The notes below the pieces were generated by a model. That model was not told where the DNA came from. It worked only from the letters and a program-made list of their open reading frames with translations, and did not search any database. A stretch of DNA of 64,000 nt from the NCBI GenBank assembly GCA_951406725.2, contig OX597842.1, positions 24,552,001-24,616,000 on the forward strand, written 5' to 3'. Shown in pieces: positions 22,946 to 61,271 of the stretch (positions within the stretch are counted from its first letter, which is position 1; each line of letters opens with the position of its first letter). The DNA comes from Octopus vulgaris (taxonomy: Eukaryota). Both the position numbers and the translations under genes were made by a program.

Positions 22946-24132
22946 ATCAAGAACACACACTCACACATGAATCATAAACTCCGTATTTTTGTACATATTT
23001 CGCAAAAAAAAAAAAAAGGAAGAAATTCTGGAAAAAGTGAAGAAATGTCGGATCTCCGCTATATGAATCAAAATACGTGTCAGAAACATCTTGAAATACT
23101 ACAGAAATTATGTTACGAAAATGATAATGTATACATACCTCTTTGAGTGGTCCATCGACATTGATGATAAAGAAATGAGATGGGTTGGAGGAAAAAATTA
23201 TCTCGGGCCAGGATAAAGACTTGCTGCTGCCAATAAGAATACGTGTATTCTCTTGGCAGCAGGTTTGATGCTTTCCATAAATAGGAACTTGGAGAGGTAT
23301 TGCTTTAAGTAACAGGCACGAATGCCTGGGCGAACAACTGATCTCTTAACTGACCCCACAATCTCTCTATCTTCTGTATGTGCACCGACGCATTTGTCGG
23401 ATCAACAAAATTTTCACTGTGGTTGATGCCTTATAACTTAACACACTCATCGGTAAAATTTTGCAGTTATTTCTTACTTATTTCCTTTTTTCCTAAAATT
23501 TTCGTTGCGTCTTGCAACCTTTTCAATAGTTTTGACTCTGTCCGTTATTTACACTGCTTTTCCTTTTGTTTGTTTGGGTGCATTGAAACTAAACTAGAGA
23601 AAGTATTAGATTTATGACTCAGGTCATTATAGACGAAAGTAATGTCTTGTGTCATGAGTATCATTTTAAAGTGTAATTTATTCGGGTAAAAGTTTATATC
23701 CACAGTTTATCATTATGAAAATGTAGTTATAATTTTTATTGTTAAACCTTTGCTTTTTAAAGTCTTATATCTTCTACTGTTTCTGTGTCATTTCAGATAC
23801 TCGTATAAAGGAGTTTTACGTGAGATACATCATGAATATTGATCATGTTTTAAAAACGAATGTCAGCCGTTATAAATAATAGATAATAACTCTGTTTATA
23901 TAATATATCTCTGGTGAATAACGGTGAAATATTTCTTCTGAATTGATAGCAACAATTGTTTTCCTCATTGCCAGGAATATTTACAAAAGTATTTTGCATT
24001 GTGTTTGAACGTGAGAAAATCTGGAAAGGTGTTTGTATCATTTTCAGATATTCAAGATCAGATTTGCTGTAGAAGATATATATAAAGAAGAAGGGGAAAA
24101 TATATTTTCTGTCTGTATACTACAGAACAATA

Positions 24133-25060
24133 ATGAATGGTCTGGAGATGTTAAAAGAAAGAGAAAAGTTATCAGACCAATGTGATATCTGTAAAAAGAC
24201 TTTTTCTAATAAGGGAAATCTCACTGTTCACAAATGTATTGATCCAGGTGGAAAGAAATATTACTGTGATATTTGTGGTAAATCATTCTCTCAAAAAAGT
24301 TACCTTACTCATCACAAATTCGTTTATACTGGAGAGAAACCACATCACTGTGATATCTGTGGTAAATCATTCTCTAAAAAATATAACCTTACTAAACACA
24401 AATCCATTCATACAGGAGAGAAACCATATCAATGTTGTATTTGCGGTAAATCATTCTCTCATAGAAGTTCCCTTGATTCTCACAAACACATTCATACAGG
24501 AGAGAAACCACATCACTGTGATATTTGTGGTAAATCATTCTCTCAAAAAAGTAGCCTTTATTCTCACAAACACATTCATACAGGAGAGAAACCATATCAC
24601 TGTGATGTCCTGTGGTAAATCATTCTCTCAAAAAGTAGCCTTAATTCTCACAAATACATTCATACAGGTGAGAAACCATATCTGTGATATTGTGATAAAT
24701 CCTTTTCATTAAAAAGTTATTTCACTACTCACAAATCCATTCATACAGGAGAGAAACCATATCGATGTGATATTTGTGGTAAATCATTCACTCAAAATGT
24801 AGGCCTTACTTATCACAAATACACTCATACTGGAGAGAAACCATATAAATGTGATATTTGTGGTAAATCATTCTCTCAAAAAGGTCACCTTACTTATCAC
24901 AAATCAGTTCATACAGGTGAGAAACCATATCAGTGTGATATCTGTGATAAATCCTTTTCATCAAAAAGTCATTTAACTACTCACAAACTTACACATACAG
25001 GTGAGAAGCCATATCACTGCGATATTTGTGGTAAATCATTCTCTCAAAAAAAGGTACTTA
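24133..25060 (+). pseudogene. C2H2 zinc-finger gene A2; five fingers in frame, then several indels; degenerate tail to ~25500
   Basis: ORF 24133-24618 nearly identical to the A1 N-terminus; broken fingers at 24600-25060. Confidence 0.85.
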
Positions 25061-58503: not shown

Positions 58504-60185
58504 TTAAGTACCTCTTCTGAGAGAATGATTTACCACAGATATAGCACCGATATGGTTTCTCACCTGTATGAACTGATTTGTGAGAATTAAGGCTACTTTT
58601 TTGAGAGAATGATTTACCACAAATATCACAGTGATGTGGTTTCTCTCCTGTATGAATGTATTTGTGATAAGTAAGGCTACTCCTATGAGAGAATGATTTA
58701 CCACAAATATCACAGGGATATGGCCTCTCATGAGTATGAATGGATTTGTGAGTAGTTAAATAACTTTTTGATGAAAAGGATTTATCACAGATATCACACT
58801 GATATGGTTTCTCACCTGTATGAACTGATTTGTGATAGTAAGGTTACTTTTTGAGAGAATGATTTACCACAAATATCGCATATGTGGCTTCTCACGTGTA
58901 TGTGTAAGTTTGTGAGTAGTTAAATGACTTTTCAATGAAAAGATTTATCACAGATATCACACTGATATGGTTTCTCACCTGTATGAACTGATTTGTGATA
59001 AGTAAGGTGACCTTTTTGAGAGAATGATTTACCACAAATATCACATTTATATGGTTTCTCTCCTGTATGAGTGATTTGTGATAAGTAAGGCCTTTCCTTT
59101 GAGAGAATGATTTACCACAAATATCACATTGATATGGTTTCTCTCCAGTATGAGTGTATTTGTGATGAGTGAGGCTACATTTCTGAGTGAATGATTTACC
59201 ACAAATATCACATCGATATGGTTTCTCTCCTGTATGAATGGATTTGTGAGTAGTTAAATAACTTTTTAATGAAAAGGATTTATCACAGATATCACACTGA
59301 TACGGTTTCTCACCTGTATGAATGTATTTGTGAGAATAAAGGCTACTTTTTTGAGAGAATGATTTACCACAAATATCGCACTGATACGGTTTCTCACCTG
59401 TATGAATGTGTTTGTGAGAATCAAGGGAACTTCTATGAGAGAATGATTTACCACAGATATCAACATTGATATGGTTTCTCTCCTGTATGAATGGATTTGT
59501 GTTTAGTAAGGTTATATTTTTTAGAGAATGATTTACCACAGATATCACAGTGATATGGTTTCTCTCCTGTATGAGTGTATTTGTGATAAGTAAGGGCTCT
59601 CCTTTGAGTGAATGATTTACCACAAATATCACAGGGATATGGCCTCTCATGAGCATGAGTGAGTTCGTGAGTAGTTAAATGACTTTTTGATGAAAAAGAT
59701 TTATCACAGATATCACACTGATATGGTTTCTCACCTGTATGAACTGATTTGTGATAAGTAAGGTGACCTTTTTGAGAGAATGATTTACCACAAATATCAC
59801 ATTTATATGGTTTCTCTCCTGTATGAGTGTATTTGTGATGAGTGAGGCTACATTTCTGAGTGAATGATTTACCACAAATATCACATCGATATGGTTTCTC
59901 TCCTGTATGAATGGATTTGTGAGAATCAAAGGAACTTCTATGAGAGAATGATTTACCACAGATATCACAGTGATGTGGTTTCTCTCCAGTATGAGTGTAT
60001 TTGTGATGAGTAAGGTAACTTTTTTGAGAGAATGATTTACCACAAATGTCACAGTAATATTTCTTTCCCCCTGGATCAATACATTTGTGAAGAGTGAGAT
60101 TTCCCTTATAAGAAAAAGTCTTTTTACAGATATCACATTGGTCTGATAACTTTTCTCTTTCTTTTAACATCTCCAGACCATTCAT
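58504..60185 (-). pseudogene. C2H2 zinc-finger gene A3; eight fingers in frame, then frameshifts (~59462, ~59075, ~58930-58800); about 20 finger units in total
   Basis: ORFs 59460-60185 and 58892-59656; MNGLEM start; degenerate tail to ~58060. Confidence 0.85.
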
Positions 60186-61271
60186 TATTGTTCTGTAGTA
60201 TACAGACAGAAAATATATTTTCCCCTTCTTCTTTATATATATCTTCTACAGCAAATCTGATCTTGAATATCTGAAAATGATACAAACACCTTTCCAGATT
60301 TTCTCACGTTCAAACACAATGCAAAATACTTTTGTAAATATTCCTGGCAATGAGGAAAACAAAGGTTGCTATTAATTCAGAAGAAATATTTCACCGTTAT
60401 TCACCATAGATATATTATACAAACAGAATTATTATCTATTATTTATAACGGCTGACATTCGTTTTTAAAACATGATCAATATTCATGATGTATCTCACGT
60501 AAAACTCCTTTATACGAGTATCTGAAATGACACAGAAACAGTAGAAGATATAGGAAAGACTTAAAAAGCAAAGGTTTAACAATAAAAATTATAACTACAT
60601 TTCCATAATGATAAACTGTGGATATAAACTGTTGCCCGAATAAATTACACTTTAAAATGATACTCATGACACAAGACATTACTTTCGTCTATTATGACCT
60701 GAGTCATAAATCTAATACTTTCTCTAGTTTAGTTTCAATGCACCCAAACAAACAAAAGGAAAAGCAGTGTAAATAACGGACAGAGTCAAAACTATTGAAA
60801 AGGTTGCAAGACGCAACGAAAATTTTAGGAAAAAAGTAAATAAGTAAGAAATAACTGCAAAATTTTACCGATGAGTGTGCTAAATTATAAGGCACAAAAA
60901 GAAAATGACTCTCCCCAGACACAACAGAATATGCTTCAATACACGAATTCATATAAAGAAAATTGCAAACCAAATAGAATTAATATCTGTTTCTTTATTA
61001 CCCACAAGGGGCGAAACACGGACGGGACAAACAAGGACAGACAAACGGATTAAGTCGATTACATTGACTCCAGTGCGTAACTGGTACTTAATTTATCGAC
61101 CCCGGAGGATGAAAGGCAAAGTCGACCTTGGCGGAATTTGAACCCAGAACGTAACGGCGGACGAAATTAATATCGATGTCAGACTAGCAATATTGAATAC
61201 TTTCATTATTGTCTGGACTTTCGAATTTTCCAGGTTCTTCTGCTTTCACTAAAAATAAAATATGTACGATA

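What the first reader, a model, noticed from the sequence alone, without database searches (positions are those of the whole stretch)
23427..60894. 37-kb palindrome carrying three ZNF gene pairs, with lesions differing between arms
Seen: arms of ~17.7 and ~18.7 kb around a 1.07-kb spacer. B2 has a stop after finger 7 while B3 is intact. C1 is frameshifted at its start while C2 has 14 in-frame fingers. A2 and A3 break after 5 and 8 fingers. The arms differ by substitutions, TE indels and a ~0.8-kb deletion between two retroposon copies (29400-30180 missing near 54200), so this is not a simple fold-back read artefact. Known: palindromes such as those on mammalian sex chromosomes undergo arm-to-arm gene conversion. 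Inferred: the same process may repair or diversify these genes.
Basis: partly seen in the sequence, partly recalled or inferred. Interest (0 to 1): 0.7.

Follow-up and report, generated by a model that had tools for sequence, protein, structure and literature searches.

The report
Inverted duplication in zinc-finger gene cluster
The 37-kb mirror repeat is in the sequence, but its arms are about 98% alike and no closer to each other than to neighbouring third copies, so it is likely an ordinary fold-back duplication in a fast-churning, likely octopus zinc-finger cluster, one that swapped or cut off gene starts, rather than a self-repairing palindrome.

Summary
The inverted repeat exists: arms 23427-41108 and 42182-60894, spacer 1,073 bp. 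The listed lesions are there, but C2 also carries a stop, with five fingers behind it. Outside the finger arrays the arms differ at 252 of 12,309 sites (2.05%), short of the >99% identity of mammalian palindromes. A third A-B copy is equidistant (private changes 47/40/41), and C2 is nearer a direct copy, C3 (2.6%), than its arm partner (3.4%). One 685-bp identical tract suggests local conversion. Only 1 of 8 arrays is clean, as neutral decay predicts; clustered 1-bp indels in A2 and A3 may be assembly errors. Finger numbers differ in 84-bp steps, which points to unequal exchange. B2 and B3 have none, A2 and C3 carry foreign ones, and two fold-backs start within about 40 bp of the first-exon motif. 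Best reading: a replication- or repair-born inverted duplication in a birth-and-death cluster. The inner junction and the lesions are unverified in reads, and 'octopus' is inferred. The scan noted promoter swaps, an orphan finger exon and mosaic paralogues elsewhere in this genome.

The parts
23427..41108 (.). left arm of the inverted duplication (A2, B2, C1)
41109..42181 (.). spacer, 1,073 bp; holds the conserved promoter block of C1, repeat pieces and a decayed finger stub
42182..60894 (.). right arm (C2, B3, A3)
24133..25102 (+). A2 coding exon, 11 finger units, out of frame after finger 5 (161 aa); clustered 1-bp indels
32365..33924 (-). B2 coding exon, 18 units, TGA after unit 7 (209 aa); no first exon of its own
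38016..39156 (-). C1 coding exon, 13 units, one extra T in the leader (17 aa)
40936..41109 (-). first-exon module of C1 (motif at 41105, splice donor near 40984), upstream promoter block intact
41620..41771 (-). decayed stub of the first two fingers of an older ZNF gene inside the spacer
   Evidence: nhmmer E=2e-28
42181..42351 (+). first-exon module of C2 (motif at 42183, donor 42299/42300); homology to C1 ends a few bases upstream of the motif, so the promoter block is missing
44568..46211 (+). C2 coding exon, 19 units, TAG after unit 14 (403 aa); internal finger duplication
50299..51435 (+). B3 coding exon, 13 units, open frame of 378 aa; acceptor at 49934 but no first exon of its own
58463..60185 (-). 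A3 coding exon, 20 units, out of frame after finger 8 (241 aa); clustered 1-bp deletions
36527..37211 (.). 685-bp tract identical between the arms (partner about 47014-47698); candidate conversion tract
34797..34870 (.). junction (partner near 49356) that joins C's downstream DNA to B's intron inside a repeat; same in both arms, absent from B1
29382..30164 (.). 782 bp present in the left arm and in copy 1, missing from the right arm at 54216
21569..21748 (+). first-exon module ahead of A2; 73% identical to that of A1 and A3, so a foreign first exon
8563..19487 (.). third copy of the A-B block (A1 at 9184+, B1 at 18546-), direct to the left arm and inverted to the right arm; its first exon lies at 2119-2297
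60814..62364 (.). second, small fold-back: 60814-61440 against 61747-62364 around a 306-bp spacer; copies A3's first exon and 5' intron onto C3
62365..64000 (+). C3: C-type intron and start of the coding exon (ATG 63942), direct copy of C2's, cut by the window end

Best explanation
This is an inverted duplication of a three-gene block (C-B-A) with arms about 98% alike, inside a cluster of near-equal zinc-finger cassettes; it likely arose once by a replication or repair template switch and has likely decayed since, with only patchy exchange between copies. Shown in the sequence: each cassette is a promoter block, a non-coding first exon, an intron and one coding exon of 84-bp fingers. The left arm keeps the ancestral DNA at its inner end (C promoter) and has a foreign outer end; the right arm keeps the ancestral outer end (A first exon, as in A1) and is cut at C's first-exon motif. 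Inferred: an ancestor Z | spacer-C-B-A | promoter A gave Z, inverted C-B-A, inverted spacer, C-B-A, promoter A by two template switches; tandem duplication followed by inversion gives the same product. Finger arrays then changed by unequal exchange in 84-bp register (differences shown, process inferred). Most copies are likely pseudogenes, and part of the 1-bp indels in A2 and A3 are likely assembly errors.
For: Arm divergence 252 of 12,309 non-array sites, 2.05%. Private changes of copy 1, left arm and right arm in four clean segments: 47, 40, 41 (P=0.71 against a star). C2-C3 (direct) 39/1496 = 2.6% against C1-C2 (arms) 52/1508 = 3.4%. One ancestral end per arm. Both arms share the derived C-to-B junction that B1 lacks. 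Arms differ by gaps of 84, 168, 252 and 336 bp in the arrays; A2 fingers 1-4 match A1 with 1-2 differences, and A3 fingers 11-14 match A1 fingers 6-9 with 0-1. 1 of 8 complete arrays is clean; simulated neutral survival is 0.26 per gene, P(at most 1 of 8)=0.34. The left spacer junction is bridged by contigs in 3 of 4 laid runs (X3, X6, X14), and contigs of X1 and X3 show a form that mixes left- and right-arm features, so further copies exist. Mouse young KZFP clusters grow the same way (PMC12575710, passages).
Against: Divergence is uneven along the arms (1.0-4.3%, chi2 62.5, df 8) with a 685-bp identical tract. In B_up the arms are closer than copy 1 (17/5/8 private changes, P=0.02 uncorrected), and in AB_mid the counts are 26/21/6 (P=0.002), so the star is not uniform. 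If all indels were errors, neutral survival would be 0.59 and 1 of 8 would be too few (P=0.01); that count still treats the indel-broken genes as broken. No listed contig bridges the inner right junction at 42182 or shows the left arm's form without the 346-bp segment (32 pieces listed, 82,012 not shown). The predicted ancestral join of Z to the spacer found no support in the window. The junctions show little microhomology at the inner end.
Confidence: 0.65

Rival explanations
1. A true palindrome kept by ongoing arm-to-arm gene conversion, which repairs or spreads lesions as on mammalian sex chromosomes.
For: Palindrome geometry with a short spacer; 685-bp identical tract, P=2e-4, and 1.04% divergence in 34751-38015; arms closer than copy 1 in B_up.
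Against: About 98% identity against >99% (PMC8981503, 10.1101/800185) and >99.9% (PMC3723533), abstracts. Star-like private changes 47/40/41, and C2 nearer C3 than C1. No excess of intact genes. The low-divergence segment has no third copy in the window, so it is not shown to be arm-specific; a later duplication or cross-polishing would give the same tract.
Confidence: 0.12
2. An assembly artefact: two haplotypes or two dispersed copies joined head to head, with long-read indel errors creating many of the lesions.
For: Arm divergence (2.05%) is not far above the 1.22% heterozygosity reported for Octopus vulgaris (10.1101/2023.05.16.540928, passage; the species of this window is not known). Small indels are 17 in 10.4 kb of arrays against 20 in 26.9 kb of flanks (P=0.026); 13 of the 17 fall in A2 and A3 and none in the B2, B3, C1 or C2 arrays (a few of the 17 are register artefacts). 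The inner right junction is not bridged by a listed contig.
Against: No N in the window. Third copies are as diverged as the arms. A second fold-back of the same layout lies just beyond the right arm. The arm ends fit a rearrangement, with one ancestral end each and a 10-bp shared word at the outer end. The stops of B2 and C2 are substitutions.
Confidence: 0.13
3. Fold-back duplications start preferentially at the transcription start of these genes and re-pair promoters and first exons with finger arrays, so that new head-to-head or shared-exon units are expressed.
For: Both fold-backs begin a few bases (42182) and about 40 bases (61747) upstream of the first-exon motif, and A1's promoter block is also cut just before it: 3 of 7 modules. 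A2 and C3 carry foreign first exons, and B2 and B3 have none. An RNA-guessed contig starts at the C-type acceptor (44242) with 59 letters from elsewhere.
Against: Few events and no test against chance. The RNA-guessed contig differs from C2 at 4 sites and does not match C1 or C3 exactly, so it comes from another copy or allele. AATAAA words lie between C and B (47320, 47353), so C transcripts may end before B. All four genes with intact promoters are frameshifted in this assembly.
Confidence: 0.1

Closest known systems
Young mouse KRAB-zinc-finger clusters (PMC12575710, passages)
   Same: Growth by segmental duplication of multi-gene blocks, junctions in repeats, an inversion between clusters, mixed genes and pseudogenes, divergent fingerprint arrays.
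   Different: No KRAB or other effector domain appeared among the 25 of 32 Pfam families shown for B3 and for C2. The first exon here is non-coding, and blocks are tens of kilobases, not hundreds.
Coleoid cephalopod C2H2 expansions (PMC9068888, passages; PMC12513265, first part and passages; PMC10547256, passages)
   Same: Large clustered families of tandem-finger genes. PMC12513265 reports that duplicates often fall into different expression modules.
   Different: PMC12513265 holds no occurrence of 'inverted', 'exon', 'promoter', 'pseudogene' or 'gene conversion' in its main text, so cluster anatomy at this scale is not covered there. That this window is octopus rests on my recall of the finger consensus and on unchecked scan notes; my protein searches did not show it.
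Mammalian X and Y palindromes, e.g. human P6 and P8 (PMC6790999, passages; PMC3723533, PMC8981503, 10.1101/800185, abstracts)
   Same: Inverted arms over 10 kb around a short spacer, genes in both arms.
   Different: Their arms are >99% to >99.9% alike through conversion. Here the arms are about 98% alike, carry kilobase indels and have equally close copies outside the palindrome.
Inverted copy-number variants made by template switching (ODIRA, FoSTeS, MMBIR; PMC10766186, abstract and passages)
   Same: Inverted duplicate beside a single-copy spacer, junctions with little microhomology.
   Different: Those are de novo events in yeast and humans. Here the origin is inferred from one old locus and the mechanism cannot be told apart from tandem duplication plus inversion.

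Membership tests
Conversion-maintained palindrome (mammalian X/Y type) | Inverted arms over 10 kb around a spacer | tested here: met
   17,682 and 18,713 bp, spacer 1,073 bp
Conversion-maintained palindrome (mammalian X/Y type) | Arm identity above 99% | tested here: not met
   97.95% over 12,309 non-array sites; best segment 98.96%
Conversion-maintained palindrome (mammalian X/Y type) | Arms closer to each other than to other paralogous copies | tested here: not met
   47/40/41 private changes; C2-C3 2.6% against C1-C2 3.4%; met only in B_up
Conversion-maintained palindrome (mammalian X/Y type) | Conversion tracts between arms | tested here: inconclusive
   One 685-bp identical tract, P=2e-4, with no third copy to show that it is arm-specific
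Conversion-maintained palindrome (mammalian X/Y type) | Concerted evolution across species; spacer flips among individuals | not testable with these tools
   No genome held; public runs are short contigs only
Poly-C2H2 zinc-finger birth-and-death cluster | Tandem C2H2 fingers with TGEKP-type linkers in 84-bp units | tested here: met
   Pfam PF00096 and PF13465; unit tables
Poly-C2H2 zinc-finger birth-and-death cluster | Several recent paralogues with mixed open and broken frames | tested here: met
   9 coding exons in 64 kb, 1 of 8 complete arrays clean
Poly-C2H2 zinc-finger birth-and-death cluster | Diversity concentrated at helix positions -1, 2, 3, 6 | tested here: met
   Entropy 2.6-3.0 bits at these four positions, the four highest of 28, over 103 fingers
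Poly-C2H2 zinc-finger birth-and-death cluster | Positive selection on contact residues among recent copies | tested here: inconclusive
   pN/pS 0.95 at contact and 0.67 at other sites in 34 nearest finger pairs, chosen for likeness
KRAB-ZNF | KRAB domain on an upstream coding exon | tested here: not met
   The ATG lies 16 codons before finger 1 in the same exon; no KRAB among the Pfam families shown (25 of 32 each for B3 and C2)
Octopus C2H2 expansion | Host is an octopus | tested here: inconclusive
   No octopus name among the 120 listed hits; one search found no candidate and no exact match; run labels are coded; the label comes from recall and unchecked notes

The most novel reading that the evidence does not exclude
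Fold-back duplications in these clusters fire at the transcription start, so each event puts a new finger array behind an old promoter or first exon. C2 and C3 run from their neighbour's promoter in reverse, and the one intact array, B3, is spliced from C2's first exon as an alternative last exon. That would be a concrete DNA mechanism for the reported switch in expression among cephalopod C2H2 duplicates.
Probability: 0.15. Interest if true: 0.55.

Novelty: new member of a known kind. Interest (0 to 1): 0.27.

Why it matters
As it stands it is an ordinary but clear example of how poly-zinc-finger clusters turn over, and a caution: gene counts for such families include orphan, promoterless and possibly mis-assembled copies. 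If the breaks truly favour transcription starts, they would offer a testable cause for the finding of PMC12513265 (passage) that cephalopod C2H2 duplicates often change expression module. If the arms did convert, it would be a rare invertebrate case, but the data here argue against that.

Tried and rejected
No whole genome is held, so copies outside the window could not be counted. Host identification failed: the B3 search was swamped by generic zinc-finger proteins of 34-59% identity, the leader-only search found no candidate, 0 of 3 proteins had an exact match, and the retroelement search named no mollusc among 120 rows. No listed holder was on record as RNA; X14 is only guessed to be RNA. 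Public contigs were laid only on 39200-44560 (4 of 24 listed runs), so the lesions in the arrays are unchecked against reads. Contig depths there (about 1,000-1,500 in X1 and X3 against about 50 for the lowest long contigs) hint at many copies, but the tool states that depth is no copy number, so I do not rest on it. I first read the joints 40807/40810 to 42824/42822 as the left-arm form; the position of the 27-nt shared block shows that they enter the 346-bp segment, so they show a mixed form instead (correction). At 10 of 18 listed variant sites that I checked, the public allele equals the partner arm's state, at 2 more only C3's, and 6 match neither; contigs drop rare variants, so this neither confirms nor refutes arm-specific alleles. 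The predicted ancestral join of Z to the spacer found nothing in the window. Twelve non-finger, non-retroelement long frames and two more frames in the retroelement region had no Pfam hit. The 5'-LTR/3'-LTR divergence (5/580) is below the copy 1-copy 3 divergence (52/2617, P=0.08), which fits a simple clock and asks for no homogenisation. Literature: 'cephalopod + palindrome + inverted repeat + zinc finger' gave 0 papers; searches showed no description of such a locus in their listings. Supplements were not read and may hold cluster maps.
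Full report
Observation. Self-comparison of the window shows a long inverted repeat. Six zinc-finger coding exons lie in it: A2, B2 and C1 on the left, C2, B3 and A3 on the right. The listed lesions are present, and so is the 782-bp deletion between two copies of one repeat. One statement needs correcting: C2's 14 fingers end at an in-frame TAG with five more fingers behind it.

How alike the arms are. BLAST gives 92-94%, but that includes the arrays. 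In nine non-array segments the arms differ at 252 of 12,309 sites, 2.05%. I left out the arrays and the non-homologous stretch near 30870-31530. Mammalian palindromes kept by conversion are over 99% alike (PMC8981503 and 10.1101/800185, abstracts; over 99.9% in PMC3723533, abstract).

The arms are not alone. A third copy of the A-B block lies at 2117-2718 plus 8563-19487, split by an LTR retroelement; it is direct to the left arm and inverted to the right. A third C cassette starts near 61747. In four clean three-way segments the private changes are 47 for the outside copy, 40 for the left arm and 41 for the right (P=0.71 against equal). Arm-specific conversion predicts a large excess for the outside copy. 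C2 is closer to its direct copy C3 (39/1496) than to its arm partner C1 (52/1508). Two segments depart from the star: B_up (17/5/8, P=0.02) favours the arms, and AB_mid (26/21/6, P=0.002), left out of the pooled count, does not.

Evidence for some conversion. Divergence between the arms runs from 1.0% to 4.3% (chi2 62.5, df 8, P=1.5e-10). One tract of 685 bp (36527-37211) is identical, against a mean longest run of 262 in 5,000 permutations (P=2e-4). This fits a recent conversion tract. That segment has no third copy in the window, so a later duplication or cross-polishing in assembly fits as well.

No sign of repair. Of eight complete arrays in the window only B3 is clean. A neutral simulation with 1% substitutions and the flank indel rate keeps such a frame open in 26% of runs, so one of eight is expected (P=0.34). 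Small indels are denser in arrays than in flanks (17 in 10.4 kb against 20 in 26.9 kb, P=0.026); 13 of 17 fall in A2 and A3, several in short runs of one base. From general knowledge this is the pattern of uncorrected long-read error, so part of these lesions may not be biological. I could not check them against reads.

How the arrays diversify. The arms differ by gaps of 84, 168, 252 and 336 bp inside the arrays; unit counts are 11 against 20 (A), 18 against 13 (B) and 13 against 19 (C). Nearest-neighbour tables show mosaics: A2 fingers 1-4 match A1, A3 fingers 11-14 match A1 fingers 6-9, and C2 fingers 10-11 repeat as 15-16. I infer unequal exchange in finger register among all copies. Residue diversity peaks at helix positions -1, 2, 3 and 6. 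pN/pS in 34 nearest finger pairs is 0.95 at these sites and 0.67 elsewhere, which is inconclusive.

Each cassette has a promoter block, a non-coding first exon with a shared motif and GT donor, an intron and one coding exon. An RNA-guessed contig starts at the C-type acceptor with 59 letters from elsewhere, which fits this splice; its alleles match none of C1, C2 or C3 exactly. A profile search finds 7 first exons for 9 coding exons, with nothing else below E=0.4. B2 and B3 have none: their intron is joined to C's downstream DNA inside a repeat, identically in both arms. C2's homology to C1 stops a few bases upstream of the motif, so it lacks the promoter block. A2 sits behind a first exon only 73% like that of A1 and A3. 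C3 has an A-type first exon joined to a C-type intron at a 6-bp shared word, through a second small fold-back (60814-61440 against 61747-62364). So the one intact frame, B3, is an orphan unless it is spliced from C2's first exon; I took that idea from scan note e1-9511821 and it is untested here.

Origin. Each arm keeps one ancestral end: the left keeps C's promoter and the spacer, which holds a decayed finger stub facing C1's way; the right keeps A's first exon. An ancestor with spacer-C-B-A gives this by two template switches, or by tandem duplication and inversion. Such mechanisms are known (PMC10766186, abstract and passages). The step is inferred, and the predicted ancestral join found no support in the window.

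Is it real? Twenty of 24 listed runs, under four species labels, hold part of 39100-49000. Four were laid on 39200-44560. Contigs of X3, X6 and X14 bridge the left spacer junction; contigs of X3, X6 and X14 bridge the exon-side edge of the right arm's 346-bp segment; X1 and X3 show a form mixing left and right features. No listed piece bridges the new junction at 42182, with 82,012 pieces not shown. Heterozygosity of 1.22% is reported for Octopus vulgaris (10.1101/2023.05.16.540928, passage), so joined haplotypes are not excluded by divergence alone. The equally diverged third copies, the second fold-back and the absence of gaps make this less likely.

Comparison and verdict. The closest known case is the young mouse KZFP cluster, which grows by block duplication and recombination at repeats (PMC12575710, passages). 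Large C2H2 clusters are known in cephalopods (PMC9068888, PMC12513265, PMC10547256). That the host is an octopus rests on recall and unchecked scan notes, not on my searches. A search for cephalopod, palindrome, inverted repeat and zinc finger together gave no paper. The scan has noted promoter swapping, an orphan finger exon and mosaic paralogues in other pieces of this genome. I class this as a new member of a known kind, interest 0.27. The boldest open reading, fold-backs that start at transcription starts and re-pair promoters with arrays, I put at 0.15.

Noticed in passing
window 2719-8561: LTR retroelement (protease, RT, RNase H, integrase in that order, Ty3/Gypsy-like by recalled domain order) in A1's intron, antisense, with a CAAC target duplication; LTRs differ at 5 of 580 sites; its coding region is spread over four frames.
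   Followed up: partly
window 60814-62364: A second fold-back with a 306-bp spacer makes C3 a chimera of an A-type first exon and a C-type coding exon.
   Followed up: partly
window 2117, 42182, 61747: Three of seven first-exon modules lose their upstream promoter block within about 40 bp of the shared motif; not tested against chance.
   Followed up: partly
window 20239-21748: An older head-to-head pair of first exons (B1 and A2), 70% alike, both with full promoter blocks, about 1.2 kb apart.
   Followed up: partly
window 15437-16130 and 52665-53403: A roughly 700-bp element with inverted ends shared by copy 1 and the right arm but not the left arm; related pieces at 1214-1991.
   Followed up: no
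window 10576-11000, 25103-25520, 37560-38015, 46212-46660, 58040-58462: Each array is followed by a tail of decayed fingers in the 3' untranslated region; the last finger-like unit with the same in-frame stop recurs in the A and C genes.
   Followed up: no
window 14, 30 calls: genes B1, A2, C1, A3 against A1, C2, B3: All four genes with an intact promoter block are frameshifted early, while the three longest open frames (A1, C2, B3) lack one; may be chance.
   Followed up: no
window 41017-41470: A 927-letter contig of the RNA-guessed run X14 covers C1's first exon and promoter side with 15 differences and then leaves the window at a GT-like site inside a common repeat; possibly a divergent transcript of another copy.
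   Followed up: no
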